This document shows positions 9,663 to 52,955 of a DNA stretch of 64,000 nucleotides, piece by piece. A program made the position numbers and the translations under genes. Below the pieces are notes generated by a model. It saw only the letters and a list, made by a program, of their open reading frames with translations, made no database searches and was not told the origin of the DNA. The stretch comes from Holophagales bacterium (lineage in GTDB: Bacteria > Acidobacteriota > Thermoanaerobaculia > Multivoradales > Multivoraceae). The stretch lies in assembly GCA_009836625.1 (NCBI GenBank), contig VXVC01000012.1, positions 482,847 to 546,846 of the forward strand, written 5' to 3'. Positions within the stretch are counted from its first letter, which is position 1. Each line of letters opens with the position of its first letter.

Positions 9663-9676
9663 CCGTTCCGCGGCAC

Positions 9677-9857
9677 CCGCCCGTCCAGAGGCCGTGGGAA
9701 GGGGTCCCTGCGGACGCTCGCTCCGGCTTGGTGGATGAGAAGTTGGGCGCTCGCTTCGGTCGACTGCGCTCCGCTAGGTTGTGGGTTACTGGGGGTTGGC
9801 CGGCAGTCGCTTGTCTCCAGCCCGCAGGGACCCCTTCCCACGGCCTCCGCACGGGCT
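9677..9857. repeat. Long inverted repeat (23-bp perfect arms gccgtgggaaggggtccctgcgg / ccgcagggaccccttcccacggc, extending imperfectly to about 35 bp, about 108-bp spacer)
   Basis: Read directly from the sequence: 9691-9713 is the exact reverse complement of 9822-9844. The flanks gcccgtccagagg / cctccgcacgggc extend the pairing with 2-3 mismatches. It sits between the SBP gene stop and vapB. Confidence 0.6.
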
Positions 9858-9955
9858 GAACGCTGTACGCTGCGACGGGCCTCAGCGGCGCTTCGGCTGA
9901 ACATTGGCGAGCCCGCGCAACGGACCGCTGGCGCCTTGCATGGATGACTTGAGTA

Positions 9956-10303
9956 ATGCAGACTAGAGAAATGAACGCACAGCAGCCAACTCGCTTGCCG
10001 GAGTCGACGATTACTTCCCGGGGCCAGACGACCCTTCCCAAGGAGGTGCGTGAAGCGCTTGACCTGAAGGCGGGGGACAAGGTGCGCTACCTCATCTACG
10101 ATGGAGAGGTACGTGTTGCACCGGTTCTGCCGCTTAGTCGGTTGTACGGAGTACTGGAGTACGACGGACCGCCGGTGACTCTGGAGGACATCGAGCGCGG
10201 CATCATCGAGGGTGCCTGCCGCAGTGCACTGGGGGATGACTGGTCGCCGGAGACACCAGAGGAAGCGGAACGGGTCGCCGTCGGAGGCGCCGGTCGTAAG
10301 TGA
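9956..10303 (+). CDS. vapB: AbrB/MazE/SpoVT-family antitoxin (VapB-like)
   Basis: SRGQTTLPKEVREALDLKAGDKVRY is a swapped-hairpin AbrB-type DNA-binding motif. The 3' end overlaps the vapC start (GTGA). The true start may be internal (ATG 9971 or TTG 9995), giving a more typical 100-110 aa or shorter product. Confidence 0.7.
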   Translation: MQTREMNAQQPTRLPESTITSRGQTTLPKEVREALDLKAGDKVRYLIYDGEVRVAPVLPLSRLYGVLEYDGPPVTLEDIERGIIEGACRSALGDDWSPETPEEAERVAVGGAGRK

Positions 10304-21141: not shown

Positions 21142-22887
21142 TTGGCGAAGCGAGTCACAGCCGAGACCCTCTCCCGCCGCCAGCGGGAGATCTCGGTATC
21201 GGAGTTCTTCGCCAAGAACCGGCACCTGCTCGGCTTCGATTCGCTCCGCAAGGCGCTGCTGACGACCGTCAAGGAGGCGGTCGACAACTCGCTCGACGCC
21301 TGCGAGGAGGCGGGCATCCTGCCCGAGATCTGGGTCGAGCTCGAAGCGGCCGAAGGAAACAACCGGTACGTCGTGCGTGTGACCGACAACGGCCCGGGGA
21401 TCGTCGAAACGCAAGCGCCGCGGATCTTCGGGCAACTGCTCTACGGGTCGAAGTTCCACAGCCTGAAGCAGAGCCGCGGCCAGCAGGGGATCGGCATCTC
21501 GGCGGCTGCGATGTACGGCCAGTTGACGACCGGCAAGCCGGTGTCGATCGTGTCGCGCACCGGCCCCCGTTCGCCCGCCTATGCGATGCAGGTCGTCATC
21601 GACACGAACACGAACAAGCCGAAGGCGGTCGGGAAGAAGAAGCTCGACGACTGGGATCTCGATCACGGTACCCGGGTCGAGCTGGAACTCGAGGCGCAGT
21701 ACATGAAGGGCCGCCAGTCGGTCGAGGAGTTCCTGCACCAGGTGGCCGTGGCGAACCCCCACGCAACGTTGCACTACAGGGATCCGCACGGCGAAGAAAC
21801 GGACTACGTCCGGGGCGTCCAGTCGAACCCGGCGGCGCCGAGCGAGATCAAGCCGCATCCGCACGGCGTCGAACTCGGCGTGCTGATGAAGATGCTGCAG
21901 TCGACCCAGCACGCGACGATCAGCCAGTGCCTGTCCCGGGACTTCAGCCGGGTGTCGCCGCAGATGGCGGTGGGCCTCGCCAAACGGGCCGGGATCGATC
22001 CGAAGGCGCGTCCGAACACGGTCGTGCGCAAGGCCGCCGACCAGCTCTACCAGGCGCTGAACGACTCCGCGACCCGCATCCGGCCGCCGTCGACCGACTG
22101 CCTGTCGCCGATCGGCGTGCAGGAGTTGCTGGCCGGCCTGACCCGGGGCATCCGGGCGGAGTTCTACGGGGTCGAGACGCGCCGGCCGGCGGTTTACCGC
22201 GGCAATCCGTTCCAGGTCGAGGTCGGCCTGGCCTGGGGCGGCGACTTGCCCGCGGACGACTTGGCCAAGGTGCTCCGGTTCGCGAACCGCGTTCCGCTGC
22301 AGTACCTCGCCGGCTCCTGCTGCATCACCAAGGCCGTGATGGACGTCTCCTGGCGCAACTACGGCCTGACCCAGTCGCGCGGCGCGCTGCCGTCGGGTCC
22401 GCTGATCGTGCTGGTGCATCTCGCCTCGGTGTGGGTTCCCTTCAGCTCCGAGAGCAAGGTCGCGGTCGCGGACTACGACGAGATCCGCAAGGAGATCAAG
22501 CTCGCCGTGCAGACCTGCGGGCGCCGCCTCGGCCAGTACGTCAAGCGCAAGGCGCGAGCGAAGAGCGAGGCGCGTCGCCGGGAGGTGTTCAACCTCTATA
22601 TCGAGGAGGTCGTCAACTCGGTGGAGGCGATCACCGGCAAGGACCAGAAGCTGTTCCGCGACCGGCTGCTCGCGATCAGCCGAAAGAAGACGGAGCTGGC
22701 GGGAATGCTCGAGGAGCAGGAGGCCTCCAGCGACGAGCTGGAAGCCTGCGAGAACGTCCTCGTCGTCGATCCGAACGCCGGACCGCCTGTTGCCGAAGAC
22801 GCCGAAGCGGCGGCCGCTGAGCACTTGCCGCCGCCGCTTCCCGTGGAGGCCGAGCGTGATCCCGGGTCGCAGTTGGAGCTGGTATGA
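21142..22887 (+). CDS. top6B: DNA topoisomerase VI subunit B
   Basis: TTG start 6 nt after an AAGGGG RBS. Bergerat/GHKL ATPase blocks SVSEFFAKNRHLLGFDS, TTVKEAVDNSLDA, VTDNGPGI. Also IKPHPHGV, CLSPIGVQEL, YRGNPFQVEVGLAWGG, LRFANRVPLQY...WRNYG. These are colinear with archaeal Top6B including the transducer domain. Confidence 0.9.
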   Translation: MAKRVTAETLSRRQREISVSEFFAKNRHLLGFDSLRKALLTTVKEAVDNSLDACEEAGILPEIWVELEAAEGNNRYVVRVTDNGPGIVETQAPRIFGQLLYGSKFHSLKQSRGQQGIGISAAAMYGQLTTGKPVSIVSRTGPRSPAYAMQVVIDTNTNKPKAVGKKKLDDWDLDHGTRVELELEAQYMKGRQSVEEFLHQVAVANPHATLHYRDPHGEETDYVRGVQSNPAAPSEIKPHPHGVELGVLMKMLQSTQHATISQCLSRDFSRVSPQMAVGLAKRAGIDPKARPNTVVRKAADQLYQALNDSATRIRPPSTDCLSPIGVQELLAGLTRGIRAEFYGVETRRPAVYRGNPFQVEVGLAWGGDLPADDLAKVLRFANRVPLQYLAGSCCITKAVMDVSWRNYGLTQSRGALPSGPLIVLVHLASVWVPFSSESKVAVADYDEIRKEIKLAVQTCGRRLGQYVKRKARAKSEARRREVFNLYIEEVVNSVEAITGKDQKLFRDRLLAISRKKTELAGMLEEQEASSDELEACENVLVVDPNAGPPVAEDAEAAAAEHLPPPLPVEAERDPGSQLELV

Positions 22888-23993
22888 CGGCTGACCGGCT
22901 GAAGATCCCGGCCAGCCTCGACGCGAAGGCCAAGATCGAGCACCTGGCGAAGAAGACGATCGCGATGGCGCGCCGCGAGGTCGATCCCTACGTCGACATC
23001 CCGTCGCGCACGCTCTCGAACGTCACCTTCTCGAAGCGCAAGAAGATCATCGAGATGGGCGACGCGACCCAGCGCCGGTCGCTCTTCAACCTGAACCAGG
23101 CGCGCAAGTACATGCAGACGCTACTGGTCGCCCGCGGCTGCTCCCAGCTCCTGGACGAGCAGAAGACGACGAGCATCCGCGACCTCTACTACATGAGCAA
23201 GCACACCCTGGCCGACGGCAAGGAGAACACCTTCGATGGCCAGGAGGAATCGGACCCGATCATCGAGGACCTGGAGGTCACTCTGGGCGCCCTGCGCGAG
23301 GAACTCCACCTGTTCGCGGCCAAGCGCGGCTCGGTCGTCGGCCCGTTGACGCTGGTCGACGCCGGCGACGTGATCGACCTGTCCCGTATGGGCTCAGGGG
23401 GATGGTCGGTTCCCGGGATCGTCGAGCCGGAGACGATCCGCTTCGTCGGCCACGGCGCCAGGTTCATCCTGCTGGTGGAGAAGGAAGCGGTCTGGGCGCG
23501 GCTCAACGAGGACAAGTTCTGGAAGCGGCACAACTGCATCCTCGTTACTGGCCAGGGACAGCCGCCGCGGGGCGTGCGGCGTCTCCTCTACCGGATGGTC
23601 CACGAGCTGGAGCTGCCGCTCTACGTCTTCGTCGACAACGACCCCTGGGGCTACTACATCCACTCCGTCGTCAAACAGGGCTCCATCGGCCTCGCCTTCG
23701 AATCCAGGCGGATGGCGGTGCCCAAGGCCCGCTTCATCGGTCTTTCCAGCTTCGACCCCGCCGCGTACGACCTCTCCGAAGACGTCAGCATCCGCCTGAA
23801 CGACCAGGACCGCTCCCGCGCGAAGGAGATCCTGAACTACGAGTGGTTCAAGGCCAGGGCCTGGCAGAAGGAGATCAAGAACATGCTCAGCGCCGGCGTC
23901 AAGTGGGAACTCGAAGCCCTCTCGAGCAAGGGCCTCTCCTTCGTCACCGAGGAGTTCCTGCCGAAGAAGATCGCCGACCGCGACTGGATCTAG
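22884..23993 (+). CDS. top6A: DNA topoisomerase VI subunit A (Spo11-like)
   Basis: ATG overlaps the top6B stop (ATGA). Winged-helix/CAP region with SIRDLYY (catalytic Tyr context). Toprim Glu (LVEKEAVW) and DxD (VFVDNDPWGYY). Archaeal-typical 369 aa. Confidence 0.88.
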   Translation: MTADRLKIPASLDAKAKIEHLAKKTIAMARREVDPYVDIPSRTLSNVTFSKRKKIIEMGDATQRRSLFNLNQARKYMQTLLVARGCSQLLDEQKTTSIRDLYYMSKHTLADGKENTFDGQEESDPIIEDLEVTLGALREELHLFAAKRGSVVGPLTLVDAGDVIDLSRMGSGGWSVPGIVEPETIRFVGHGARFILLVEKEAVWARLNEDKFWKRHNCILVTGQGQPPRGVRRLLYRMVHELELPLYVFVDNDPWGYYIHSVVKQGSIGLAFESRRMAVPKARFIGLSSFDPAAYDLSEDVSIRLNDQDRSRAKEILNYEWFKARAWQKEIKNMLSAGVKWELEALSSKGLSFVTEEFLPKKIADRDWI

Positions 23994-24000
23994 CGCCTCC

Positions 24001-25065
24001 TTACCACTCGCCCAACTCGACCTCCGGCGTTTTCGGCAACTCCTCCGCAAGCAGCCAGCGGGCGAAGAGAACGCCCTCGTTGTAGCCGGCGGTGCTGATC
24101 CAGTTCTTCGGCGCCTCCCGGTGGCTCAGGTAGATGACGTAGCTGCCGTCCGGCTCGGCGACGGCGGTCTGCTTGTTGACGCACACCTGGAAGTCGTTGT
24201 AGTTCGTCGACTGCATCAGGTAGTTCCACGTCTGGAGACCCCAGTAGCACGCTTCCGGTGACCGGAAACGCACCTTGAGGTACTCGTGCTCCTGCAGCCG
24301 GAAGCGGCAGAAGCAGTAGATGTTGTCGACCGTCCCCCAACCGCCCTGCTCCGGGTCGAACTCCCACGGATCGCAGAACTCGTTGAACGGGAGGTGGACC
24401 GGCAGCGGCGCGATCCACGTCGTGCACATGAAGAACATCGCCATGCTGCGGATTCGCCGTGCCAGCTCGACGTCGTCGAGCGGCAGCGCGGGTGGCTGCG
24501 GCGAGGCGTTCTCGATGCTGAGAATGCTCTCCCGCGCCGTCGCGCGGTCGAGGAAGTACTCGCGCGTGAAGAGCGACACCGAGTCGGGGTCGATCTGGAA
24601 CTCGTTCGGCCCCTTCGGATCGGGCGTCAGCTTGATCTCGAACGACCCGTCGTCGTCGAAGGCGATGTCGCGGTGGTTGACGTTCAATGTCACCCGGTCC
24701 GCCAGCTCGCCGTTCGGATCGCCGCCGTAGAGGCAGAAGCTCAGGTAGCAACTGCCGAAGTGCCGCCCCCGGATGACGTACTCCTGGTCGCCGCGGACCT
24801 GCGAGAAGTAGTAGACCGCGTCCACGTTGTCCCCGTAGAGCTTGCGGGTCCCGTCGGTGAGCCGCATGAGCCGTGGCCGCAGGGGGTCGTTGTGGAGGTA
24901 GAAGTCGATCGTTACCTGCATCAGGTGGAACAGGTGCTGGTAGCCGTCCACGTGGCCCTGGTGGTCGAGTTCTTTCTCGGGGTCGAGGAACGTCTGCTCG
25001 GCGTTGCGGATCACGTCCAGAAACTCGTGCAGCGCCTGCCGACTCTCGAAGTCGCTGTCGCTCAT
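24001..25065 (-). CDS. Conserved hypothetical cytoplasmic protein (possibly DUF1214-like), translationally coupled to the sulfotransferase
   Basis: 354-aa ORF, Cys/Trp-rich, no signal peptide. Its ATG overlaps the stop of the upstream sulfotransferase gene (ATGA). Family not confidently recognised. Confidence 0.55.
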   Translation of the reverse strand: MSDSDFESRQALHEFLDVIRNAEQTFLDPEKELDHQGHVDGYQHLFHLMQVTIDFYLHNDPLRPRLMRLTDGTRKLYGDNVDAVYYFSQVRGDQEYVIRGRHFGSCYLSFCLYGGDPNGELADRVTLNVNHRDIAFDDDGSFEIKLTPDPKGPNEFQIDPDSVSLFTREYFLDRATARESILSIENASPQPPALPLDDVELARRIRSMAMFFMCTTWIAPLPVHLPFNEFCDPWEFDPEQGGWGTVDNIYCFCRFRLQEHEYLKVRFRSPEACYWGLQTWNYLMQSTNYNDFQVCVNKQTAVAEPDGSYVIYLSHREAPKNWISTAGYNEGVLFARWLLAEELPKTPEVELGEW

Positions 25066-26303
25066 CGCTGTGTCTCCAGGAAGTTGAGATAGTGGGCGTA
25101 CTCGTTCTCGATCTCGGCCCGTGTCGTGCCCATCTGGTCCAGCGAGTACTCGTGGACGCCGTGCTTTCCCCGGCGCTCCTGCTGCAGGAATCGCTCCATG
25201 CGGAGCCGGTCCTCCGGCCGGAGGTCCCAGCCGAAGCGGGCATAGATCACGTCGACGACCGACATCTGGTCCTTGACGAAGTCGTCGAAGAACACGTCGA
25301 CCATCTGTTCCTCGCGGTCGAGCTCCCGGCGGTCTCGCAGGAACCGGGCGAAGTAGTCGGCCCAGGTCAGGAGTTGCTCACGCGCCGTTCGCGGCGTGTC
25401 CTCGTGGTCCGAGTAGAACGACCGCATCGACGAGATCAGGCTCCCGACCGAGGGCACCACGTCGGCCGGGTGGCGATGGGTCACGATGACCCGGGCATCG
25501 GGATAGACCTCGAAGAGAGCCCGCAGCCGCATCAGGTGGACGGGCGACTTCAGCAGCCAGCGACGGGCGGGAACGCCGCCCGACTGCAGGAACTGCAGGA
25601 AGCGCCGGTGCCAGCGCAGGTTCTGCGCCTGGTCGGCCTTCGCGAACCAGTCGAGGTACTCGGGCAGCCAGGCCATGGCGACGTACTGGAAGCTCGTGAA
25701 GTTGAGCGCCGTGATGCCGATGCACTCCTGCGGCGAGTCGGCCGTCATGTAGTGCTTGCGGCGGAAGTCGGGCACGAGCCGGAAGATCTGGTCGAACTCC
25801 TTGCGCACCGTCTCGATGCGCTCGTTGTCCCGGTAGTCGTCCGGATTCGGCGCCGGGTGGGGCAGGAGGCACTCCCAGGACAGCGGCGCCCGGTGGTTTC
25901 GGTCCAGGTGCAGCAGAGCGTGGAGGATCGTCGTCCCGCTCCGCGGCATGCCGACGATGAAGACCGGCGCGCGGACCTCTTCGTCGCCGATCTCGGGGTG
26001 TTCCGAGAGCGCTCGCTCGACTTGGGAGCGCGAGTCGGCCGAACGTTGCACCGTGCCGCGCGCGGCCAGCCGACCGAACGTGCTCAGCCGCGCGTGCGTC
26101 TCGAGCCCGTGCACGAGGCGCTCGACGCCGTCGCGGAATATCGGATCGCGCACCTCGAACCCGCTGGCCCGACGCGCGTTCTCCAGAATCCGCTCGGGCG
26201 TCAGCCTGAAGGGCGTCAGTCCGCAGTGGCCGGCAACCGCTCCGACACGGTTGACGGCCTTGAGCGCGACCGGCTGCCGGATCCGGATCGAAGGGTTCGC
26301 CAA
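25062..26303 (-). CDS. Sulfotransferase-family protein (PAPS-dependent)
   Basis: 5'-PSB motif FIVGMPRSGTTILHALL and a 3'-PB-like THRHPADVVPS. 413 aa. Confidence 0.8.
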   Translation of the reverse strand: MANPSIRIRQPVALKAVNRVGAVAGHCGLTPFRLTPERILENARRASGFEVRDPIFRDGVERLVHGLETHARLSTFGRLAARGTVQRSADSRSQVERALSEHPEIGDEEVRAPVFIVGMPRSGTTILHALLHLDRNHRAPLSWECLLPHPAPNPDDYRDNERIETVRKEFDQIFRLVPDFRRKHYMTADSPQECIGITALNFTSFQYVAMAWLPEYLDWFAKADQAQNLRWHRRFLQFLQSGGVPARRWLLKSPVHLMRLRALFEVYPDARVIVTHRHPADVVPSVGSLISSMRSFYSDHEDTPRTAREQLLTWADYFARFLRDRRELDREEQMVDVFFDDFVKDQMSVVDVIYARFGWDLRPEDRLRMERFLQQERRGKHGVHEYSLDQMGTTRAEIENEYAHYLNFLETQR

Positions 26304-26305
26304 GC

Positions 26306-26608
26306 TCAGGTCAGCTTCTTCAGCTTGGCGGCAATCGACATGTCGCCCTTGACCTTGATCTTCCCCGACGCGACGGCCATGAACGGCTTGATCTCCTTGC
26401 GCTGCAGCTTGCCGAAGGTGTCGAGCGACATCCGGACCGTGCAGTCCGTCTCGACCTCCTGGCCCGACACCTTCGAGACGACGTTCGCCTCACCCGTCCC
26501 GTCGATCAGCATCTGCTCCTCGTCCAGCAGGAACAGCAGCCTCTTCCCAAGGGGATCGATACCCCCCGCCTTTACGGCCATGTCGGCAACGAACTCGTCG
26601 ATCGTCAT
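26306..26608 (-). CDS. SCP2 sterol/lipid-carrier domain protein
   Basis: About 100 aa: MTIDEFVADMAVKAGGIDPLGKRLLFLLDEEQMLIDGTGEANVVSKVSG...KGDMSIAAKLKKLT, typical of standalone SCP2. It is the C-terminal end of a 601-aa track ORF whose remainder is an alternative-frame artefact. Confidence 0.75.
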   Translation of the reverse strand: MTIDEFVADMAVKAGGIDPLGKRLLFLLDEEQMLIDGTGEANVVSKVSGQEVETDCTVRMSLDTFGKLQRKEIKPFMAVASGKIKVKGDMSIAAKLKKLT

Positions 26609-26667
26609 CACAAGCTCCTGGTCGTGGAACCCGCGAACCCTAACCCACGCTGAGCCGGCGCCGCTGG

Positions 26668-28122
26668 CTAGTTCAGCGCTGCGGCCGCAGCAGGAAACGC
26701 CTTCAGCACCTCCCGTGTCATGTCCCAGCGGTCGAAGCCCTGGCGCCCCCAGTCGAGGCCGCGGCGGACGATGACGAGGTCGTGGGAGGGGACGATGACG
26801 ACGTACTGGCCGCGGTTGCCGGCGGTGGAGTAGGCGTCTTTGGGGACGTCCCTGCGTTCGTCGGGGACGAGCCAGAACTGGCCGCCGTAGAAGTTGCCGC
26901 GGTTGGCTGTCGAGGGGGCCGGGGTGCGGACGAAGTCGATCCACTCCTCGGAGATGAGGCGTTTGCCGTTCCAGACGCCGTTCTGGAGATAGAGAAGACC
27001 GAAGCGGGCAAGGTCGCGGGTGCTGGTGTAGACCTGACTGCTGAGGATGAAGTCGCCGAAGCGGTCGGTGCTGAGCAGGGTGTTCCGCATGCCGATTCGG
27101 TCGAGCAGGCGCTTGCGCGGGAACTCGTGGTACTTCTTCTCGCTGCCGAGGGCGCGCTTCATCGCGTAGACGGCGAGCAGGGTGTCGTAGTTCTCGTAGT
27201 CCCAGTTGGCGCCCGGCTCGCGGATCAGGGCGCGGCGGCGTGCGCCTTCGACGGAGCTGGCGCCGGCCCAGTAGGACAGGCCGGAGCCGACGGCGTACTC
27301 CTGCCCGCCGTTGTCCACCGTCTGCAGGCCGCTCGACATGTTCAGCGCGTGACGCAGGGTGGTCGCGGAGCGCGGGTCGGTCTCCGCCGCGGCGGCTTCC
27401 TTGGGAAGGAAGTCGAAGCCGAGCGGCTCGTCGAGAGCCAGCTTGCCGTCGTCGACCAGCATGCCGATCAGCGTCGAGGCGATGCTCTTCGCCGTCGACC
27501 AGGTGCGCGTGCGCGTCGTCATGTCGACGCCGTCGGCGTAGCGTTCGTGGACGATCCGGCCGCGATGGACGACGAGCAGGCTCAGCGTGACCTGCTGGGG
27601 TGACTCGCGGTCGAAAGCCCAGTCGGAGGCGGCCTGGAGCGCGGTCGCGTCGACATCGGACGGCGGTGAGATCGGACCGGTCTTGTCTCCGTTGGGCCAG
27701 GGGATCTTCGCCGCATCGCCGGCCGGTGGCGGCATCTCGATGGCGGGCAGGCTGTCTATGTCCTCCAGTGTCTGATCGGGCGCCAGGACGACGCAGCCGA
27801 TTCCCTCGCGGAAGGCGGCCCGCATCTTCGGCACGCCGTGGCCCGATCCGATCGTCACGGCTCTGCGTTCCCAATCGACTTCGTAGTCGCCGCCTTCCGC
27901 GGTTCCGACCGGTTCCGGCAGGTAGGCGAGTTCCTGCGCGAACACCTGCTCGAGGGTCCGGTTGGACGTGAACAGCCCGTTGCACATGAAGATCGCCTGC
28001 TGGCCCAGGCGGACCATCTGCCGCTGCGGTTGCCAGTAGTCGTAGGTTTCCTCCTGCTGGGCGGCGGCGGGGAGAGCAGTCAGCAGGATGGAGGTGGCCA
28101 GAGCGGGACACCAGGACTTCAT
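26668..28122 (-). CDS. Secreted beta-lactamase-fold serine hydrolase (class C / esterase family)
   Basis: Signal peptide, SxxK nucleophile motif (WSTAKS), 484 aa. Confidence 0.8.
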   Translation of the reverse strand: MKSWCPALATSILLTALPAAAQQEETYDYWQPQRQMVRLGQQAIFMCNGLFTSNRTLEQVFAQELAYLPEPVGTAEGGDYEVDWERRAVTIGSGHGVPKMRAAFREGIGCVVLAPDQTLEDIDSLPAIEMPPPAGDAAKIPWPNGDKTGPISPPSDVDATALQAASDWAFDRESPQQVTLSLLVVHRGRIVHERYADGVDMTTRTRTWSTAKSIASTLIGMLVDDGKLALDEPLGFDFLPKEAAAAETDPRSATTLRHALNMSSGLQTVDNGGQEYAVGSGLSYWAGASSVEGARRRALIREPGANWDYENYDTLLAVYAMKRALGSEKKYHEFPRKRLLDRIGMRNTLLSTDRFGDFILSSQVYTSTRDLARFGLLYLQNGVWNGKRLISEEWIDFVRTPAPSTANRGNFYGGQFWLVPDERRDVPKDAYSTAGNRGQYVVIVPSHDLVIVRRGLDWGRQGFDRWDMTREVLKAFPAAAAALN

Positions 28123-28138
28123 GGGTTGCGATCCTCCT

Positions 28139-28975
28139 TCAGCTCAAAGTAGCAGCACCGTCGCGAGCGCCAAGCCAGTACAGGTTCTGCCGGCCCCCGG
28201 GTCCGTCGGAGCGGTAGCGGGCGACTTCGGTCAACGGGAAGCCTTCGACCAGACGATCGAGTTCCGGTTCGCCGGCGTGGTGGCAGTAGCGGCGGGCCTG
28301 GTGCGCGGGTCTTCCGACCCGCTGCCGCCGGAGGCGGCGGGAGGATCGTCGCCGGCTTTGCCGGCGGCCTTCGGTGTCGGCCGGCCCCCAGCGGAGCAGG
28401 TGATCTCCGGGCTCGAGTTCCGCAGGGTCGACGCCGGCTTCCGAGGCCCAATCGAGCCGGCGGCGCTCGAAGCCGGGGTCGTCCGCGAACTGCCAGCAGG
28501 TGAGGGCGAGGAGGCCGCCGGGCGCCACGGCTGATGCGGCGCGTTCGAGGGTGCGGCGGCGCATGTCGAAGCCCGGGATGTGGTGGAGGACGCCGAAGAG
28601 GGTGACGAGGTCGTAGGTCGCTTCGGCGAGGGTGCAGTTCTCGATGTCGTTGGCCTCGAAGCGGATGTGGTCGAGGCCGGCGGCGGCCGCTCGGGCGTGG
28701 TCGATCAGCTCGCTGCTGAGGTCGATGCCCTGGTAGGTGAAGCGTCGGTCGCTGAGCAGTTCGGGGTTGTGCTGCAGGAACAGGGCGAAGCGGCCGTTCC
28801 CGCAGCCGAGGTCGAGGACACGTAGGGGGCGGTCCGTGGCCGGTGCCGCGGTTTCGACAACCCGCTGCCAGCCCGGCCAGCCGCCCGGGTGGCGGGTACG
28901 GTCGAAGTCGGCCGCGTGGCGGCTGTAGAAGTTGCGGTTGATCCGGCGGAGGGCGGCTTGCGTGAAGGCGTCCAA
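28139..28975 (-). CDS. Class I SAM-dependent methyltransferase
   Basis: SAM motif I VLDLGCGNGR and motif II/III spacing. The C-terminal third is Arg-rich, so a frameshift or mis-assigned end is possible. Confidence 0.65.
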   Translation of the reverse strand: MDAFTQAALRRINRNFYSRHAADFDRTRHPGGWPGWQRVVETAAPATDRPLRVLDLGCGNGRFALFLQHNPELLSDRRFTYQGIDLSSELIDHARAAAAGLDHIRFEANDIENCTLAEATYDLVTLFGVLHHIPGFDMRRRTLERAASAVAPGGLLALTCWQFADDPGFERRRLDWASEAGVDPAELEPGDHLLRWGPADTEGRRQSRRRSSRRLRRQRVGRPAHQARRYCHHAGEPELDRLVEGFPLTEVARYRSDGPGGRQNLYWLGARDGAATLS

Positions 28976-28981
28976 CCGGCT

Positions 28982-29794
28982 CTATCCAGAACCCAGGCTG
29001 AGCCCGCCGTCGACGGCGAGCAGGGCTCCGGTGATCCAGTCGTTCGCCGGGTCGCAGAGGAAGACGACGGCTCGCGCGACGTCGTCCGGTTCGCCGACGC
29101 GGCCCAGCGGCACCTCGTCGCCGAAGCCTTCGAGGAAGGCGGCGGCCTCGTCCGGCGGCATGATCGTCTCGAAGATCGGGGTGCGCACCACCCCGGGAAG
29201 CACCGCGTTTACCCGAATCCGGTCGCCGGCGAGTTCGGCCGCGAGGCTGCGGGTCAGCGCGTCGACGCCGGCCTTCGCGGCCGTGTAGACGGAGCAGTTG
29301 GCGAGCGGCGACTGAGTGAGCGACGAGGAGATGTTGACGATCGAGGCGCCGCCGCGACCCGCGCGGAGATGGGGGATCGTGGCCCGGGTCGCGAACAGCA
29401 CGCCCTTCAGGTCGACGTCGATGACGAGGTCGACCGGGTCGGGTTCGGTCTCGTCGCTCTCGGCCGCGAGCGGCCCGGCGCGGTAGACGCCGGCGCAGTT
29501 GACGAGGATGTCCAGCCCTCCGAGTTCGCGGGCCGCTTCTTCCACCATCTGCCGCGCGCCGTCCGCGCTCGAGACGTCGCCGGCGACGGCGACGGCGCGA
29601 AGGCCGAGCGCGCGCAGGTCGGCGGCGGCTGTTTCGACCACCTCCCGGCGGCGGCCGCCGAGGGCGATGCCGCATCCGCCCCGGGCAAGGGCACGGCCGA
29701 TCGCCAGTCCGATGCCGCTGCCGCCGCCCGTGATCAGGGCCGCCCGCCCCTGGAACAGTGTCCAGGTGGCCGTCTCGCCGGCTGTGGTCGTCAT
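28982..29794 (-). CDS. SDR-family oxidoreductase
   Basis: TGGGSGIG dinucleotide-binding motif and YxxxK (YTAAK). The start is taken at the internal ATG (MTTTAGETATW). Confidence 0.8.
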   Translation of the reverse strand: MTTTAGETATWTLFQGRAALITGGGSGIGLAIGRALARGGCGIALGGRRREVVETAAADLRALGLRAVAVAGDVSSADGARQMVEEAARELGGLDILVNCAGVYRAGPLAAESDETEPDPVDLVIDVDLKGVLFATRATIPHLRAGRGGASIVNISSSLTQSPLANCSVYTAAKAGVDALTRSLAAELAGDRIRVNAVLPGVVRTPIFETIMPPDEAAAFLEGFGDEVPLGRVGEPDDVARAVVFLCDPANDWITGALLAVDGGLSLGSG

Positions 29795-29842
29795 CGCCTC
29801 GTTGCCCGCAAGCGCCCGGTGCCGCCGTAGTAGGTTCCTGTC

Positions 29843-31678
29843 ATGGCGGCGACAATAGCCCCGAAGCGTTTCTCGTTCGAGCCCGAAGAGCACGCGGCGG
29901 AGCTCGACGCGATCATCGGCGCCATCGAGAGCGCGTCACGCTTCGAGGAGCGCGATCTCGACGATCTGCTGCGCCGCCACCCGAAGAACGGCAGGGGCTT
30001 CTTCTCGAAGAGCGAGTTGATCCGCGGCTATCGCGCGCTTCGACCCGGTTCGGCGGGCGAGCAGACTTTCGTCGACCGGGTGCGGATGAAGCCGGTCCGA
30101 ACGCGGAGCGGCGTGGCGCCGGTGACCGTGCTGACCAAGCCCTTCCCGTGCCCGGGCCGGTGCATCTTCTGCCCCAGCGACGTGCGGATGCCGAAGAGCT
30201 ACCTGTCGTCCGAGCCCGGCGCCCAGCGGGCCGCCGAACACCAGTTCGATCCCTACCGGCAGACCCTCTCCCGCCTCCGCTCCTACCGCCACACCGGGCA
30301 TCCGGTCGACAAGGTGGAGTTGATCGTCCTCGGCGGCACCTGGTCGAGCTATCCGGAGGGCTACCAGGTCTGGTTCATTCTGCGCTGTCTCCAGGCGATG
30401 AACGAGTTTTTCGACGTGTCGTCCGGGCCGGCGGCGGATCCGCTGCTGGCGCTCGATCCCGCGGTGGACTTTCGGCACCTCGAGGAGACGGTGCGGGGCG
30501 CGGAGGTCGACTCGTCGGACGCGGCAGCCGGCCGCAGCTACAACCAGGTCGTCTCCGACTGGACCGCCGCCCATCCACGGGCGGCCGCCGAGGCGCGCGA
30601 GCAGCACGCTGGCTGGGACGACCTGCTGGCGGCGCAGCGCGAGAACGAGACGTCGCCGGTCCGCTGCGTCGGGTTGTCGCTCGAGACCCGGCCCGACCGG
30701 CTCGACGCGGCGGAGGCGCTGCGCATGCGGCGGCTCGGAGCGACCAAAGTCCAGATCGGCATCCAGAGCATGGACGACGACGTTCTGGCCCTCAACGGCC
30801 GCGGCCACGATACGGCCCGGTCGCGGCGCGCCGTGCGCTTCCTGCGCCAGGCCGGCTTCAAGATCCAGGCGCACTGGATGCCGAATCTCCACGGTTCCAC
30901 GCCGGCCAGGGACCGGGAGGACTTCGACCGGCTGTTCGCGGATCCCGACGTACGTCCGGACGAACTCAAGGTCTATCCGTGCTCCTTGATCGAGAGTGCC
31001 GAACTCATGGCGTACCACCGCCGCGGCGAGTGGCTTCCGTACGAGACGGACGAGCTGCTCGACGTCCTGGTCTACGGTCTGGGCGGCGCGCCGCGCTACT
31101 GCCGCCTCAGCAGGGTGATCCGCGACATTCCCGGCACGGACATCGTCACCGGCAACCGCACGACGAACCTGCGTCAGGTGGCTGAGGCCGAGGCGGCGGC
31201 GCGCGGGATCCGCTGCCGGGACATCCGCGCCCGCGAGGTCGGCGGCCGCCCGGTCGAGCCGCGCCGGCTGCGCCTGCGGCGCACCGACTACGAGGCGTCG
31301 GGCGGCCGGGAGATCTTCCTCGAGTTCGTGACCGCGAATGACCGGATCGCGGGGTTCCTGCGGCTTCGCCTGCCCGGGCGGTCCGCCGCGGACGACATCT
31401 CGCTCCCGGAGCTGGCGAACAGGGCGATCATCCGCGAGGTTCACGTCTACGGAGCGGTCGTCGGCCTGGGTGAGCGGGAGGAGGGACGGTCGCAGCACGT
31501 CGGCCTCGGCCGGCGCCTGATCGCCGAGGCGCTGGACATCGCGGCCGGCGCCGGGTTTGGTCAGGTGGCCGTCATCTCCTCGGTCGGCACCCGCGAGTAC
31601 TACCGCCGGCTCGGCTTCGAGGACGGCGAGCTGTACCAGCACCGGTCGGCGCGGGAGCCGCTGGAGACTCCGACGTGA
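29843..31678 (+). CDS. elp3: Elp3-family radical-SAM / GNAT enzyme (tRNA wobble-uridine modification homologue)
   Basis: KPVRTRSGVAPVTVLTKPFPCPGRCIFCP matches the Elp3 N-terminal and CxxxxCxxC radical-SAM blocks. A central TIM-barrel region follows, then a C-terminal KAT/GNAT block (QHVGLGRRLIAEA). 611 aa. Confidence 0.85.
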   Translation: MAATIAPKRFSFEPEEHAAELDAIIGAIESASRFEERDLDDLLRRHPKNGRGFFSKSELIRGYRALRPGSAGEQTFVDRVRMKPVRTRSGVAPVTVLTKPFPCPGRCIFCPSDVRMPKSYLSSEPGAQRAAEHQFDPYRQTLSRLRSYRHTGHPVDKVELIVLGGTWSSYPEGYQVWFILRCLQAMNEFFDVSSGPAADPLLALDPAVDFRHLEETVRGAEVDSSDAAAGRSYNQVVSDWTAAHPRAAAEAREQHAGWDDLLAAQRENETSPVRCVGLSLETRPDRLDAAEALRMRRLGATKVQIGIQSMDDDVLALNGRGHDTARSRRAVRFLRQAGFKIQAHWMPNLHGSTPARDREDFDRLFADPDVRPDELKVYPCSLIESAELMAYHRRGEWLPYETDELLDVLVYGLGGAPRYCRLSRVIRDIPGTDIVTGNRTTNLRQVAEAEAAARGIRCRDIRAREVGGRPVEPRRLRLRRTDYEASGGREIFLEFVTANDRIAGFLRLRLPGRSAADDISLPELANRAIIREVHVYGAVVGLGEREEGRSQHVGLGRRLIAEALDIAAGAGFGQVAVISSVGTREYYRRLGFEDGELYQHRSAREPLETPT

Positions 31679-33090
31679 GCGCGCTCACGACCGACCTCTA
31701 CCAGTTGACGATGGCCCAGGGGTACTGGCGGCACGGCCGCCACCTGGACCGGGCCAGCTTCTACCTGTCCATTCGCCACACTCCGTTCGACGGCGGCTTC
31801 GCCGTCGCGGCGGGCCTCGAGCAGGTCGTGGATTTCCTGGTCGATCTTCGTTTCGAGCCCGAGGACCTCGAGTACCTGCGAAGCCTTGCCGGAAGCGACG
31901 GCAGGCCCCTGTTCGCCCCTGACTTCCTCGCGGCGCTGCCGACGCTCGACCTCTCCGTCTCGCTGGCCGCCGTCCCGGAGGGAACGGCCGTCTTCGCGCG
32001 AGAACCGCTACTCCGGATCGAGGCGCCGCTGCTGGTCGGCCAGTTGATCGAGACGCCCGTCCTCAACATATTCAACTTCCAGACGCTGGTGGCGACGAAG
32101 GCTGCCAGGCTTTGCCACATCGCCGCGCCGGGCCAGCCGGTGCTGGAGTTCGGTCTGCGCCGGGCGCAGGGCTTCGACGGCGGTTTGAGCGCCAGCCGCG
32201 CCGCCTACGTCGGCGGCTGCTTCGCGACCTCGAACGTCGAGGCGGGACAGCGCTTCGGCATTCCGGTGCGCGGTACTCACGCGCACAGTTGGGTCCAGGC
32301 CTTCGACTCGGAGCGTGAAGCGTTCGACGCGTTCGCGGAGACGATGCCGAACAACTGCGTCCTCCTGGTCGATACCTACGACGTGGAGCGGGGGATCGAG
32401 AACGCGATCGCCACCGCGCGGGTGCTCGAGCGGCGCGGCAAGCGGCTGCTCGGCATCCGTCTCGACTCGGGCGACCTGCTGCTGCAGAGCCGCGCGGCGC
32501 GGCGGCGGCTCAACGAGGAGGGGCTCGAGGACGTCGCCATCGTCGTCAGTGACAACCTGGACGAGAAGAAGATTCTGGCGTTGCGGCGGGCGGGCGCGGC
32601 GATCGACATCTGGGGCGTCGGCACCGCGCTGGTGACGGCGGCGGGCGCGGGCGCGCTGGGAGGCGTGTACAAGCTGTCGGCCATCCGGCGGAGCGGCGAG
32701 GAGGCGTGGCGGCCAGTGTTCAAGTTCGGCGCCGGCGTCGGCAAGGCCTCCCTGCCGGGGCGCCTGCAGGTGCGGCGCTACCGCGACGGCGCCGGCGGCC
32801 TGGAGCGGGACGTGATCCACGCGCTCGACGAGGGCGGGGAGGCCTCCGGCCTGGACGATCCGGGTGGCCAGAATCTGCTCGTGCCGGTGCTGGAGGACGG
32901 CCGGCTGATCGAGTCGCTGCCGTCGCTCGACGCCGCTCGCGAGACGGCGGGGCGCGAGGTGGCTTCACTGCCGTCGGCGTTGCAGGACCTCGAGGCTCAC
33001 GGGCCGGCGCCGGTCGAGGTCACGGCGAGCCTGATGGAGCAGTGCGACCGGCTGGCGGCCTCGCACGCACCGCCCGCCCGCTCGGCCTGA
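31675..33090 (+). CDS. pncB: Nicotinate phosphoribosyltransferase
   Basis: GTG start overlapping the elp3 stop (GTGA). N-terminal LTTDLYQLTMAQGYW and HAHS blocks of NAPRTase. 471 aa. Confidence 0.9.
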   Translation: MSALTTDLYQLTMAQGYWRHGRHLDRASFYLSIRHTPFDGGFAVAAGLEQVVDFLVDLRFEPEDLEYLRSLAGSDGRPLFAPDFLAALPTLDLSVSLAAVPEGTAVFAREPLLRIEAPLLVGQLIETPVLNIFNFQTLVATKAARLCHIAAPGQPVLEFGLRRAQGFDGGLSASRAAYVGGCFATSNVEAGQRFGIPVRGTHAHSWVQAFDSEREAFDAFAETMPNNCVLLVDTYDVERGIENAIATARVLERRGKRLLGIRLDSGDLLLQSRAARRRLNEEGLEDVAIVVSDNLDEKKILALRRAGAAIDIWGVGTALVTAAGAGALGGVYKLSAIRRSGEEAWRPVFKFGAGVGKASLPGRLQVRRYRDGAGGLERDVIHALDEGGEASGLDDPGGQNLLVPVLEDGRLIESLPSLDAARETAGREVASLPSALQDLEAHGPAPVEVTASLMEQCDRLAASHAPPARSA

Positions 33091-33136
33091 ACCTCCGGAA
33101 ACCGGCGCTTCGGAGGCCGGTCGTTCATAATCCCGC

Positions 33137-35230
<2,094 letters not shown>

Positions 35231-52877: not shown

Positions 52878-52955
52878 GGTCGTTCTCCTTCGTCCGTCCC
52901 GTGCGTCGTTCGTCGATGCGGCGCGGAGCATAGCGCCGCCGGGCGGTCCCCGGGC

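What the first reader, a model, noticed from the sequence alone, without database searches (positions are those of the whole stretch)
24001..29794. Six-gene minus-strand operon centred on a sulfotransferase: SDR, SAM-methyltransferase, beta-lactamase-fold hydrolase, SCP2 lipid carrier, sulfotransferase, ATGA-coupled unknown protein
The genes are tightly packed (gaps of 0-60 bp, one 4-nt overlap). The combination of an SCP2 lipid-binding module with a PAPS-type sulfotransferase and tailoring enzymes (SDR, methyltransferase, esterase-like hydrolase) looks like a small biosynthetic or modification pathway for a sulfated lipid or hydrophobic metabolite. The last gene (354 aa, Cys/Trp-rich) has no recognisable function and is co-translated with the sulfotransferase.
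Basis: inference. Interest (0 to 1): 0.5.

Follow-up and report, generated by a model that had tools for sequence, protein, structure and literature searches.

The report
Conserved three-gene lipid sulfation operon
The six tightly packed genes are real, but only the last three (a small lipid-carrier protein, a sulfate-transferring enzyme and a protein of unknown function) form a unit kept together across four bacterial phyla. The same enzyme/unknown-protein pairing also sits next to cholesterol-degradation genes in mycobacteria, which gives a testable lead on two orphan protein families.

Summary
All six minus-strand genes exist at the stated coordinates with the stated domains and spacing. 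The "six-gene pathway" reading holds for only half of them.

**Conserved core.** SCP2 -> Stf1-like PAPS sulfotransferase -> DUF1214-like protein keeps its order and strand, with median gaps of 2 and 1 nt. Across 80 species-level genomes of Acidobacteriota, Gammaproteobacteria, Bacteroidota and Chlorobiota, 76 have the sulfotransferase and 73 have SCP2. The flanking genes differ between lineages.

**The other three genes.** SDR, methyltransferase and the secreted beta-lactamase-fold hydrolase adjoin the trio only in the window's own acidobacterial clade. There the unrelated neighbours (TopoVI, Elp3) are equally syntenic, and insertions split the six in several members. Hydrolase orthologues elsewhere stand alone.

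**Distant relatives.** Homologues of the DUF1214-like protein (PDB 6ANS type, 25-29% identity) also pair with Stf-type sulfotransferases in other lineages:
- Mycobacteriales: DUF1214-like -> SDR -> Stf1 orthologue, beside kshA.
- Sphingomonadales.
- Paraburkholderia: in one operon with cysQ, cysD and cysN.

In three marine genomes a KshA-like Rieske oxygenase replaces SCP2.

**Best reading.** This is a self-contained cytoplasmic module that sulfates a hydrophobic, possibly steroid-like, alcohol. The substrate and the role of the DUF1214-like protein are unproven. I found no published description of the module.

The parts
26306..26608 (-). SCP2 single-domain lipid carrier (100 aa), first gene of the conserved trio. 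AGGAG lies 8 nt upstream of the ATG.
   Evidence: Pfam SCP2, E 6e-12. Sequence read. Found directly upstream of the sulfotransferase in 73 of 77 assessable loci.
25062..26303 (-). Stf1/Stf9-type PAPS sulfotransferase (413 aa, TTG start 2 nt after the SCP2 stop), with an N-terminal helical extension.
   Evidence: Sulfotransfer_3, E 4e-42. PDB 2ZQ5 (M. tuberculosis Stf1), E 1e-42, and 2Z6V (Stf9), E 3e-40. Residues invariant in 77 sequences include PRSGTT (120-124), E193, K252, H256, H276, R277, P279 and S285.
24001..25065 (-). DUF1214-like protein of the 6ANS type (354 aa). It has no signal peptide and overlaps the sulfotransferase stop by ATGA. It is the most conserved gene of the trio.
26609..26667 (-). 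59-nt spacer between the hydrolase stop and the SCP2 start. It is the largest gap in the array and the junction where related genomes carry 0.5-4.5 kb insertions.
   Evidence: L008, L013, L016, L023, L024. No sigma-70-like promoter or terminator was found.
26668..28122 (-). Class-C beta-lactamase-related serine hydrolase (484 aa) with a putative signal peptide. It is an adjacent gene, not part of the conserved module.
   Evidence: PF00144, E 6e-31. Orthologues in other Acidobacteria stand alone.
28139..28975 (-). Class I SAM methyltransferase (278 aa). It is a lineage-specific neighbour.
   Evidence: Methyltransf_23/25/11. Present next to the trio only in the acidobacterial clade.
28982..29794 (-). 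Classical SDR oxidoreductase (270 aa). It is a lineage-specific neighbour. SDRs recur near DUF1214-like/SULT pairs elsewhere, but orthology is not shown.
   Evidence: adh_short_C2, E 2e-57. Only 28% identical to the SDR of the Tsukamurella Stf1 operon. A second SDR lies at 52107-52931.

Best explanation
The functional unit is a self-contained, cytoplasmic three-gene operon at 24001-26608 on the minus strand: SCP2 -> Stf1-type sulfotransferase -> DUF1214-like protein.

Proposed mechanism:
- The small SCP2 protein solubilises or delivers a hydrophobic molecule that carries a free hydroxyl (inferred).
- The sulfotransferase binds PAPS through its PRSGTT 5'-phosphosulfate loop and its HRHP...S 3'-phosphate motif, and transfers the sulfo group to that hydroxyl. 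This follows from homology and intact motifs.
- The DUF1214-like protein is a soluble protein of two beta-sandwich domains plus helices. It handles the same molecule before or after sulfation, as a pathway partner rather than a catalytic subunit (inferred from gene linkage only).

The acceptor is most likely a lipid-like alcohol. A steroid-like or polycyclic compound is the leading candidate and a hydroxy-fatty or isoprenoid lipid is the alternative. The SDR, methyltransferase and secreted beta-lactamase-fold hydrolase upstream are lineage-specific neighbours, not shown to belong to the pathway.

My sub-confidences are 0.85 that the trio is the unit, 0.65 that the acceptor is hydrophobic and 0.4 that it is steroid-like.
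For: **Linkage of the trio.**
- Same order and strand in 80 species-level loci from Acidobacteriota (23), Gammaproteobacteria (41), Bacteroidota (15) and Chlorobiota (1). SULT is present in 76 and SCP2 in 73.
- Median gaps are 2 and 1 nt.
- Clustering of flanking ORFs finds no other conserved neighbour.
- The contexts are unrelated housekeeping genes.

**The enzyme looks intact.** Sulfotransfer_3, homology to Stf1/Stf9, and invariant PAPS-binding residues. None of the three proteins has a signal peptide, judged by eye from the sequences.

**Independent re-occurrence of the DUF1214-like/Stf-type SULT pair at 25-30% identity.**
- Mycobacterium/Mycolicibacterium and Tsukamurella: DUF1214-like -> SDR -> Stf1 orthologue (2ZQ5, E 5e-190). 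In the mycobacterial loci it lies beside a KshA orthologue (2ZYL, E 2e-223) and steroid-catabolism-type genes. In Tsukamurella it lies beside cysD and an adenylyl-sulfate kinase gene (annotated cysC).
- Sphingobium: SnoaL -> SULT -> DUF1214-like.
- Paraburkholderia: ADH -> DUF1214-like -> SULT -> VOC -> CysQ -> CysD -> CysN.
- 26 of 28 plasmids with a DUF1214-like gene also carry a Stf-type SULT, against 52 of 72,556 plasmids overall.

**Clues to a hydrophobic or steroid-like acceptor.**
- The SCP2 domain itself.
- A KshA_C-type Rieske oxygenase replaces SCP2 in L066, L076 and L082.
- A bona fide KshA sits directly upstream of a DUF1214-like gene in Prescottella.
- NTF2/SnoaL, SDR, P450 and beta-oxidation genes surround distant homologues.
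- Characterised Sulfotransfer_3 enzymes act on cholesterol (BtSULT) and on hydroxy fatty acids (ErSULT, which is structurally closest to Stf1) (PMC13449962).
- A Stf-type domain ends a Planktothrix type I PKS.
Against: - No substrate, product or activity has been shown for any member. The Stf1 substrate is still unknown (PMC13449962).
- The trio has no biosynthetic genes beside it, so the acceptor cannot be read from context.
- The KshA-like Rieske protein of the variant loci scores about equally against the saxitoxin hydroxylases SxtT/SxtDIOX, so "steroid" is only suggestive.
- Two gammaproteobacterial genomes (L026, L031) have SCP2 -> DUF1214-like with no sulfotransferase between them. Four of ten inspected distant homologues have no SULT within 6-7 kb. 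The DUF1214-like function is therefore not strictly sulfation-dependent.
- Stf-type SULTs also occur without any DUF1214-like gene, and ErSULT is active alone in vitro.
- In L052/L053 an alpha/beta-hydrolase gene on the opposite strand separates SULT from the DUF1214-like gene.
- The 80 loci were chosen by similarity to the DUF1214-like protein, so the counts are conditional on its presence.
- Many of the genomes are sponge or marine MAGs that may have shared the cassette by transfer, so the loci are not all independent.
Confidence: 0.6

Rival explanations
1. First reader's model. All six genes form one biosynthetic or modification pathway for a sulfated lipid, with SDR, methyltransferase and esterase-like hydrolase as tailoring enzymes around the sulfotransferase.
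For: - All six are on one strand with gaps of 59 nt or less, and no terminator-like site lies between them in the window.
- The arrangement is kept in about 20 related acidobacterial genomes.
- SDR genes recur close to DUF1214-like/SULT pairs in Mycobacteriales, Sphingomonas, N. aromaticivorans and three Bacteroidota loci.
Against: - Conservation is confined to a clade in which unrelated flanking genes (TopoVI A/B, Elp3, NAPRTase) are equally syntenic.
- Insertions split hydrolase from SCP2 (L013 and L023 about 2 kb, L024 4.5 kb) and methyltransferase from hydrolase (L019 4 kb, L017 1 kb).
- One clade member (L083) lost SCP2, SULT and the 5' part of the DUF1214-like gene but kept the other three.
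- Hydrolase orthologues in other Acidobacteria have different neighbours.
- None of the three genes accompanies the trio in 57 non-acidobacterial loci.
- The window SDR is only 28% identical to the mycobacterial-type operon SDR, and SDRs are common (two in this window).
- The hydrolase has a signal-peptide-like N-terminus.
Confidence: 0.12
2. Sulfation is an activating step rather than the end product. The sulfotransferase installs sulfate as a leaving group on a steroid or lipid hydroxyl. The DUF1214-like protein is then an undescribed enzyme that eliminates, displaces or rearranges the sulfate ester, as part of catabolism or remodelling of hydrophobic compounds.
For: - The DUF1214-like protein is more conserved than the enzyme (61-67% against 45-52% between Bacteroidota and the window).
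- It keeps about 16 polar residues down to 25% identity: D79, N80, D82, Y85, R168, D173, N228, Q278, N281, N297, D306, N321, T325, R336. That pattern looks more like an active site than a lipid pocket.
- Distant homologues sit in catabolic clusters, with KshA, NTF2, acyl-CoA dehydrogenase, thiolase, MaoC and alpha/beta hydrolases. Some sit near phosphotransferase or "ecdysteroid 22-kinase family" genes.
- One family member is fused to an Abhydrolase_3 esterase.
- From my own knowledge, sulfation followed by elimination is established for the CurM/olefin-synthase ST-TE pair, and kinase plus lyase activation is known in anaerobic sterol side-chain degradation.
Against: - No SULT-DUF1214 fusion was found among the long family members scanned.
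- The trio lies in housekeeping contexts without catabolic genes.
Confidence: 0.2
3. The trio has nothing to do with lipids. The sulfotransferase modifies a polar metabolite, glycan or peptide, and SCP2 and the DUF1214-like protein are co-transcribed for unrelated reasons.
For: - Another mycobacterial sulfotransferase, Stf0, acts on trehalose (from my own knowledge).
- No lipid-synthesis genes flank the trio.
Against: - SCP2 is a dedicated hydrophobic-ligand domain and is kept in 73 of 77 assessable loci.
- When SCP2 is absent, a Rieske monooxygenase of the KshA_C type takes its place.
- The characterised relatives in Sulfotransfer_3 act on cholesterol and hydroxy fatty acids.
- The contexts of distant homologues are dominated by lipid and steroid-type catabolic genes.
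Confidence: 0.08

Closest known systems
Mycobacterial stf1 locus (M. tuberculosis Rv3531c-Rv3530c-Rv3529c, beside kshA Rv3526 in the cholesterol-catabolism region)
   Same: It pairs a Stf-type Sulfotransfer_3 enzyme with a 6ANS-type DUF1214-like protein in one operon. The window proteins are 28-30% (SULT) and 25-28% (DUF1214-like) identical to the Mycolicibacterium and Tsukamurella versions. Both are cytoplasmic and neither has a known substrate (PMC13449962).
   Different: - Gene order is DUF1214-like -> SDR -> SULT.
- There is no SCP2.
- An SDR lies inside the operon.
- The locus is embedded in steroid-catabolic genes with an IclR regulator.
- Identification of Rv3531c itself as the DUF1214-like gene is inferred from orthologous Mycolicibacterium loci, gene lengths and the gene list in PMC6429209. 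The H37Rv sequence was not read directly.
Bacteroides thetaiotaomicron cholesterol sulfotransferase BtSULT (BT_0416) and Eubacterium ramulus ErSULT
   Same: Both are PAPS-dependent bacterial enzymes of Pfam Sulfotransfer_3 that act on hydrophobic alcohols (cholesterol; 3- and 16-hydroxy fatty acids). ErSULT's nearest structure is Stf1 (PMC13449962).
   Different: No sequence comparison with the window enzyme was possible here. Neither is reported with SCP2 or DUF1214-like partners, and ErSULT works alone in vitro.
Hydroxylase-plus-sulfotransferase pairs such as M. tuberculosis Cyp128-Stf3 (sulfomenaquinone S881)
   Same: The logic is to oxygenate a lipid and then sulfate the new hydroxyl. The variant loci L066, L076 and L082 have a Rieske oxygenase directly upstream of SULT -> DUF1214-like.
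   Different: The oxygenase is a Rieske protein rather than a P450, and the window itself has SCP2 instead of an oxygenase. Stf3 is cited in PMC3141025. The Cyp128 link is from my own knowledge.
Sulfotransferase domains of type I PKS (CurM/olefin-synthase type; Planktothrix PKS found here)
   Same: A Planktothrix agardhii type I PKS ends in a domain 29% identical to the window enzyme over 99% of its length. This shows that the family acts on hydroxy-acyl chains.
   Different: That version is a domain of a megasynthase rather than a free enzyme. The role of sulfate as a leaving group is known for CurM (my own knowledge) and has not been shown for this clade.
DUF1254/DUF1214 proteins (VPA0735, PDB 2P3Y; VPA0106, 3U07)
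   Different: The window protein has no DUF1254 domain. It belongs to the 6ANS-type architecture, in which both halves resemble DUF1214.

Membership tests
PAPS-dependent sulfotransferase, Pfam Sulfotransfer_3 (Stf1/Stf9 type) | Profile match above the curated threshold | tested here: met
   PF13469, 145.5 bits against a cut-off of 27.
PAPS-dependent sulfotransferase, Pfam Sulfotransfer_3 (Stf1/Stf9 type) | 5'-phosphosulfate-binding loop (PxxGTT) and 3'-phosphate-binding motif (R...S) | tested here: met
   PRSGTT at 120-125 and HRHPADVVPS at 276-285. P120, R121, G123, T124, H276, R277, P279 and S285 are invariant in 77 sequences, including Stf1 orthologues. Assignment of the motifs rests on general knowledge of the fold.
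PAPS-dependent sulfotransferase, Pfam Sulfotransfer_3 (Stf1/Stf9 type) | Full-length homology to solved Stf1/Stf9, including the N-terminal helical extension | tested here: met
   2ZQ5, E 1.4e-42, query 49-402. 2Z6V, E 2.9e-40, query 40-409.
PAPS-dependent sulfotransferase, Pfam Sulfotransfer_3 (Stf1/Stf9 type) | PAPS-dependent sulfo-transfer activity and identity of the acceptor | not testable with these tools
   Needs an enzyme assay.
SCP2 sterol/lipid carrier domain | Profile match covering the domain | tested here: met
   PF02036, 46.1 bits against a cut-off of 21.3, covering profile positions 23-99 of 101.
SCP2 sterol/lipid carrier domain | Binding of a hydrophobic ligand | not testable with these tools
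   No assay was possible. The only weak NCBIfam match is UbiJ, far below its cut-off.
DUF1214 family, 6ANS-type architecture | Profile match and homology to a solved member | tested here: met
DUF1254+DUF1214 two-domain proteins (VPA0735 type) | N-terminal DUF1254 domain | tested here: not met
Mycobacterial-type stf1 operon (DUF1214-like -> SDR -> Stf1) | Adjacent DUF1214-like gene and Stf-type sulfotransferase | tested here: met
   ATGA overlap in the window. The same pairing occurs in L086 and L099-L102.
Mycobacterial-type stf1 operon (DUF1214-like -> SDR -> Stf1) | Same gene order with an SDR between the two genes, and orthology to Stf1 | tested here: not met
   The order is reversed and no SDR lies between them. 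The window SULT is 30% identical to the Stf1 orthologue and scores about equally against Stf9. The upstream SDR is only 28% identical to the operon SDR.
   Only three of the six are co-localised outside one clade.
   The consensus scans were uninformative. RNA data are needed.
Class C beta-lactamase-related serine hydrolase (upstream neighbour) | PF00144 match with SxxK and YxN motifs | tested here: met
   108 bits. STAK and YEN are visible in the translation. The best NCBIfam match, 3-succinylated cholic acid synthase, scores 72 bits against a cut-off of 800, so it is not a member of that equivalog.

The most novel reading that the evidence does not exclude
6ANS-type DUF1214 proteins are the missing enzymatic partner of Stf1-type sulfotransferases. 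The sulfotransferase puts sulfate on a steroid-like or lipid hydroxyl as a leaving group, and the DUF1214-like protein carries out the follow-up elimination or rearrangement. SCP2 (or a KshA-like oxygenase) feeds the substrate. The same two-step chemistry would operate at Rv3531c/Stf1 in the M. tuberculosis cholesterol locus. If so, it would assign a first function to DUF1214 and a substrate class to Stf1.
Probability: 0.17. Interest if true: 0.75.

Novelty: new variant of a known kind. Interest (0 to 1): 0.5.

Why it matters
Bacterial PAPS-dependent sulfation of small molecules is only now being mapped, with cholesterol sulfation by Bacteroides and hydroxy-fatty-acid sulfation by E. ramulus as the first cases. 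The substrate of M. tuberculosis Stf1 is still described as unknown (PMC13449962), and DUF1214 has no assigned function.

This locus shows that a Stf-type sulfotransferase and a 6ANS-type DUF1214 protein are linked in at least seven phylum- or class-level lineages, in three different operon layouts. Their companions point to hydrophobic, possibly steroid-like, substrates: SCP2, KshA-like oxygenases, SDRs, and CysQ/CysD/CysN. That turns two orphans into one concrete, testable hypothesis.

It also suggests that many marine and sponge-associated bacteria could make or process sulfated lipids. Marine animals are known for sulfated sterols (from my own knowledge).

If the link is only a pathway neighbourhood with a mundane detoxifying role, the finding is a modest annotation improvement.

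Tried and rejected
- **Literature.** No paper holds DUF1214 together with sulfotransferase, and the few papers mentioning DUF1214 or DUF1254 give no function. Nothing was found for sponge symbiont + sulfotransferase + sterol carrier, or for "Candidatus Multivorans" + sponge. The one SCP2/sulfotransferase co-mention (Iyer et al. 2010) concerns unrelated dioxygenase neighbourhoods.
- **Promoter/terminator scan of 23800-30000.** No promoter-like site, and the terminator-like sites are at chance level and on the wrong strand. It gives no information on operon boundaries.
- **Rfam and tRNA scans of the window.** Nothing found.
- **Foldseek against AFDB.** The library was unavailable.
- **Domain fusions as a Rosetta stone.** Among the long family members, one is fused to an Abhydrolase_3 esterase and one carries DUF1254. 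None is fused to a sulfotransferase.
- **PAPS-synthesis genes.** None lie near the trio in the 80 loci or in the window. They are adjacent only in the Tsukamurella and Paraburkholderia versions.
- **Orthology of the window SDR with the SDR of the mycobacterial-type operon.** Only generic 28% identity, so rejected.
- **Hydrolase as a bile-acid-type enzyme.** Its best NCBIfam match is 3-succinylated cholic acid synthase, but the score is far below the family cut-off, so rejected.
- **Recent horizontal acquisition in this genome.** GC3 of the trio (0.91-0.94) matches its neighbours, so there is no composition signal.

Full report
**1. The observation**

The window is about 68-70% G+C, so raw ORF lists are full of shadow frames. 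Third-position GC of 0.86-0.94 singles out one minus-strand frame for each of six genes between 24001 and 29794.

| Gene | Coordinates (-) | Pfam evidence |
|---|---|---|
| SDR | 28982-29794 | adh_short_C2, E 2e-57 |
| SAM methyltransferase | 28139-28975 | Methyltransf_23/25 |
| Beta-lactamase-fold hydrolase | 26668-28122 | PF00144, E 6e-31 |
| SCP2 | 26306-26608 | PF02036, E 6e-12 |
| Sulfotransferase | 25062-26303 | Sulfotransfer_3, E 4e-42 |
| DUF1214-like | 24001-25065 | PF06742, 28.9 bits (cut-off 25) |

The gaps are 6, 16, 59 and 2 nt, followed by a 4-nt ATGA overlap. Gene callers on the public source contig give the same six genes. The source is a MAG, GCA_009844385.1. Its closest relatives are Acidobacteriota MAGs labelled Thermoanaerobaculia, Holophagales or Ca. 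Multivorans. The array is flanked by topoisomerase VI B/A, convergent with 7 nt between the stop codons, and by a divergent Elp3-like radical-SAM/GNAT gene.

**2. Which genes belong together**

I used an alignment of 17 homologues of the last gene to scan one genome per GTDB species. This gave 163 confirmed relatives, of which the best 80 loci were fetched with 10-kb flanks. I then ran tblastn with all six window proteins and four flanking proteins against these loci. The result is clear.

- SCP2 -> sulfotransferase -> DUF1214-like occurs in that order and orientation in Acidobacteriota (23 loci), Gammaproteobacteria, mostly Pseudomonadales (41), Bacteroidota (15) and Chlorobiota (1).
- The sulfotransferase is present in 76 of the 80 loci. 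SCP2 is present in 73, with three further loci cut by contig ends.
- Median spacings are 2 and 1 nt.
- SDR, methyltransferase and hydrolase accompany the trio only in the acidobacterial clade. There TopoVI, Elp3 and NAPRTase are equally conserved in place, so this is lineage synteny and not evidence of shared function.

Even within that clade the six are interrupted.
- Insertions of 0.5-4.5 kb lie between the hydrolase and SCP2 (L008, L013, L016, L023, L024).
- Insertions of 1-4 kb lie between the methyltransferase and the hydrolase (L017, L019, L020, L021).
- L083 has lost SCP2, the sulfotransferase and the 5' third of the DUF1214-like gene but keeps the other three.

All-against-all clustering of ORFs from the 57 non-acidobacterial loci found no further gene family shared by more than nine loci, apart from shadow ORFs of the trio. 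Pfam-annotated neighbourhoods show the trio beside leucine-biosynthesis genes in a Bacteroidota genome, beside groES/EL and type II secretion genes in a Pseudomonadales genome, and among unrelated genes in Pseudohongiella. Orthologues of the hydrolase at 76-79% identity in other Acidobacteria stand alone next to an EVE-domain gene.

The unit is therefore three genes, not six.

**3. The three proteins**

*Sulfotransferase.* Its only solved relatives are 2ZQ5 (M. tuberculosis Stf1; identity of the entry confirmed in PMC13449962) and 2Z6V (Stf9). The match is full-length and includes the N-terminal extension. In an alignment of 77 sequences that includes Stf1-type proteins, the following are invariant:
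- PRSGTT, the 5'-phosphosulfate loop;
- H276, R277, P279 and S285, the 3'-phosphate motif;
- E193, K252 and H256.

The enzyme looks intact.

*SCP2.* This is a 100-aa single-domain protein.

*DUF1214-like protein.* It matches the uncharacterised Burkholderia cenocepacia structure 6ANS (E 3e-36).
- It lacks DUF1254.
- It is the most conserved of the three. Against Bacteroidota and Chlorobiota loci it is 61-67% identical, compared with 45-52% for the enzyme and 44-54% for SCP2.
- About 16 polar residues are kept even in homologues at 25% identity.

A profile search of 1.84 billion representatives finds 2268 family members at E <= 1e-3. The trio-type orthologues form a tight, separate clade, because the best full-length representative scores only 377 bits. 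None of the three proteins shows a signal peptide, which fits a PAPS-dependent cytoplasmic reaction. The upstream hydrolase does show one.

**4. Independent support for the sulfotransferase/DUF1214-like link**

I ran tblastn against annotated plasmids and found 28 records with distant homologues of the DUF1214-like protein, at 24-29% identity.
- *Tsukamurella:* DUF1214-like -> SDR -> sulfotransferase, divergent from a regulator, cysD and an adenylyl-sulfate kinase gene annotated cysC. That sulfotransferase is an Stf1 orthologue (2ZQ5, E 2e-171).
- *Mycobacterium and Mycolicibacterium:* 375-aa orthologues of the Tsukamurella protein occur throughout. There the operon DUF1214-like (375 aa) -> SDR (260 aa) -> Stf1 orthologue (2ZQ5, E 5e-190) lies next to a KshA orthologue (2ZYL, E 2e-223), thiolase, SnoaL and ChsH2-type genes. 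This matches the order Rv3531c-Rv3530c-Rv3529c near kshA listed for the M. tuberculosis cholesterol region (PMC6429209). The H37Rv sequence itself was not read, so that last step is an inference.
- *Sphingobium:* SnoaL -> SULT -> DUF1214-like.
- *Sphingomonas and N. aromaticivorans:* the two genes lie 4-6 kb apart among NTF2, SDR and FAD genes.
- *Paraburkholderia sprentiae:* alcohol dehydrogenase -> DUF1214-like -> SULT -> VOC -> CysQ -> CysD -> CysN on one strand. This ties the pair directly to PAPS supply and PAP removal.

All these sulfotransferases are of the same Stf type, 26-30% identical to the window enzyme over nearly its full length. At record level, 26 of the 28 plasmids with a DUF1214-like gene also carry a Stf-type sulfotransferase, whereas only 52 of 72,556 plasmids have one. 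At least 10 of the 28 have it within 10 kb. Most of these records are related sphingomonad megaplasmids, so this is not a clean statistic.

**5. Clues to the substrate**

The evidence is circumstantial.
- SCP2 is a hydrophobic-ligand carrier.
- In the three Pseudomonadales loci without SCP2 (L066, L076, L082), a Rieske oxygenase with a KshA_C catalytic domain sits directly upstream. In L082 an FAD amine-oxidase-like gene follows it. The best solved relatives of this Rieske protein are KshA enzymes, but the saxitoxin hydroxylases score almost as well.
- A genuine KshA (KshA_C, E 8e-88) precedes a DUF1214-like gene in Prescottella.
- The mycobacterial operon adjoins kshA.
- Distant homologues sit among NTF2/SnoaL, SDR, P450, alpha/beta-hydrolase and beta-oxidation genes.
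- One family member is fused to an Abhydrolase_3 esterase.
- Characterised members of Sulfotransfer_3 act on cholesterol (BtSULT) and on 3- and 16-hydroxy fatty acids (ErSULT, whose fold is closest to Stf1). The Stf1 substrate is stated to be unknown (PMC13449962).
- A Planktothrix type I PKS ends in a Stf-type domain.

Together these favour a hydrophobic alcohol. Steroid-like compounds are the leading candidate and hydroxy-fatty or isoprenoid lipids are the alternative.

**6. Mechanism and its limits**

The most likely mechanism is as follows.
- SCP2 presents a hydrophobic hydroxylated molecule.
- The Stf-type enzyme sulfates it from PAPS.
- The DUF1214-like protein acts on or binds the same molecule.

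Several observations show that the DUF1214-like protein is a pathway partner rather than a subunit needed for catalysis.
- ErSULT is active alone.
- Stf-type enzymes occur without DUF1214-like genes, in Streptomyces clavuligerus and cyanobacteria.
- DUF1214-like genes occur without adjacent sulfotransferases (L026, L031).

Its strong conservation and many invariant polar residues leave open that it is an enzyme that uses the sulfate ester (the activation model). No catalytic relative supports this. Nothing here identifies the product.

**7. Comparison and novelty**

The parts are members of known families: Sulfotransfer_3 (Stf type), SCP2 and DUF1214. The conserved combination was not found in any searchable paper, and neither was the recurrence of the sulfotransferase/DUF1214-like pair from marine bacteria to the mycobacterial stf1 locus. 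I classify it as a new variant of a known kind, namely bacterial PAPS-dependent lipid sulfation modules. The six-gene interpretation is only partly right.

**8. Verdict**

| Question | Result |
|---|---|
| Observation | Confirmed |
| Interest | 0.5 |

The finding does not overturn anything. It does give a concrete, cheap experimental route to two orphan families and to the still-unknown substrate of Stf1.

Noticed in passing
window 21142-23993 (+), junction at 23994-24000: Topoisomerase VI B and A subunit genes lie in an acidobacterial genome. The top6A stop and the DUF1214-like stop are convergent with only 7 nt between them, which leaves no room for terminator hairpins.
   Followed up: partly
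L066 7701-11059; L076 7718-11065; L082 4696-9431: Variant operon in three Pseudomonadales/Azotimanducus-type genomes. A KshA_C-type Rieske oxygenase replaces SCP2 upstream of SULT -> DUF1214-like. In L082 an FAD amine-oxidase-like gene follows the Rieske gene.
   Followed up: partly
L026 9644-11062; L031 9673-11062: Two gammaproteobacterial MAGs have SCP2 directly followed by the DUF1214-like gene, with no sulfotransferase between them or elsewhere in the 21 kb held.
   Followed up: partly
L083 9412-10768: One Ca. Multivorans genome has lost SCP2, the sulfotransferase and the first 98 codons of the DUF1214-like gene. It retains SDR, methyltransferase, hydrolase and the flanking synteny.
   Followed up: no
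L105 5967-13472 (Paraburkholderia sprentiae plasmid): A single-strand array of alcohol dehydrogenase -> DUF1214-like -> sulfotransferase -> VOC -> CysQ -> CysD -> CysN. An "ecdysteroid 22-kinase family" phosphotransferase and an SDR lie just upstream.
   Followed up: partly
L107 2737-10269 (Planktothrix agardhii plasmid p1): A type I polyketide synthase next to an NRPS ends in a Stf-type sulfotransferase domain (locus 9001-10227). It is 29% identical to the window enzyme over 99% of its length.
   Followed up: no
L052 9102-9905 (-); L053 3723-4523 (-): An alpha/beta-hydrolase gene is inserted on the opposite strand between the sulfotransferase and the DUF1214-like gene in two related Pseudomonadales genomes.
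   Followed up: no
window 28139-28975 (-): The methyltransferase carries an Arg-rich low-complexity stretch (…RRQSRRRSSRRLRRQR…). The L005 match spans about 24 fewer codons than the window gene, and the protein diverges faster (63-86% identity) than its neighbours within the clade. I did not map where the length difference falls.
   Followed up: no
window 26668-28122 (-): The best NCBIfam match of the secreted beta-lactamase-fold hydrolase is 3-succinylated cholic acid synthase (E 4e-20). At 72 bits against a cut-off of 800 it is not a member. The protein is 76-95% conserved across many Acidobacteria.
   Followed up: partly
window 29843-35230 (+): An Elp3-like radical-SAM/GNAT gene overlaps by 4 nt a nicotinate phosphoribosyltransferase gene, which is followed by a glutamine-dependent NAD synthase gene. 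The arrangement is conserved across the clade.
   Followed up: no
L094 10637-12007 (-): A Na+/sulfate symporter-family gene lies 1.6 kb downstream of the trio in one Pseudomonadales genome. It is probably coincidental.
   Followed up: no
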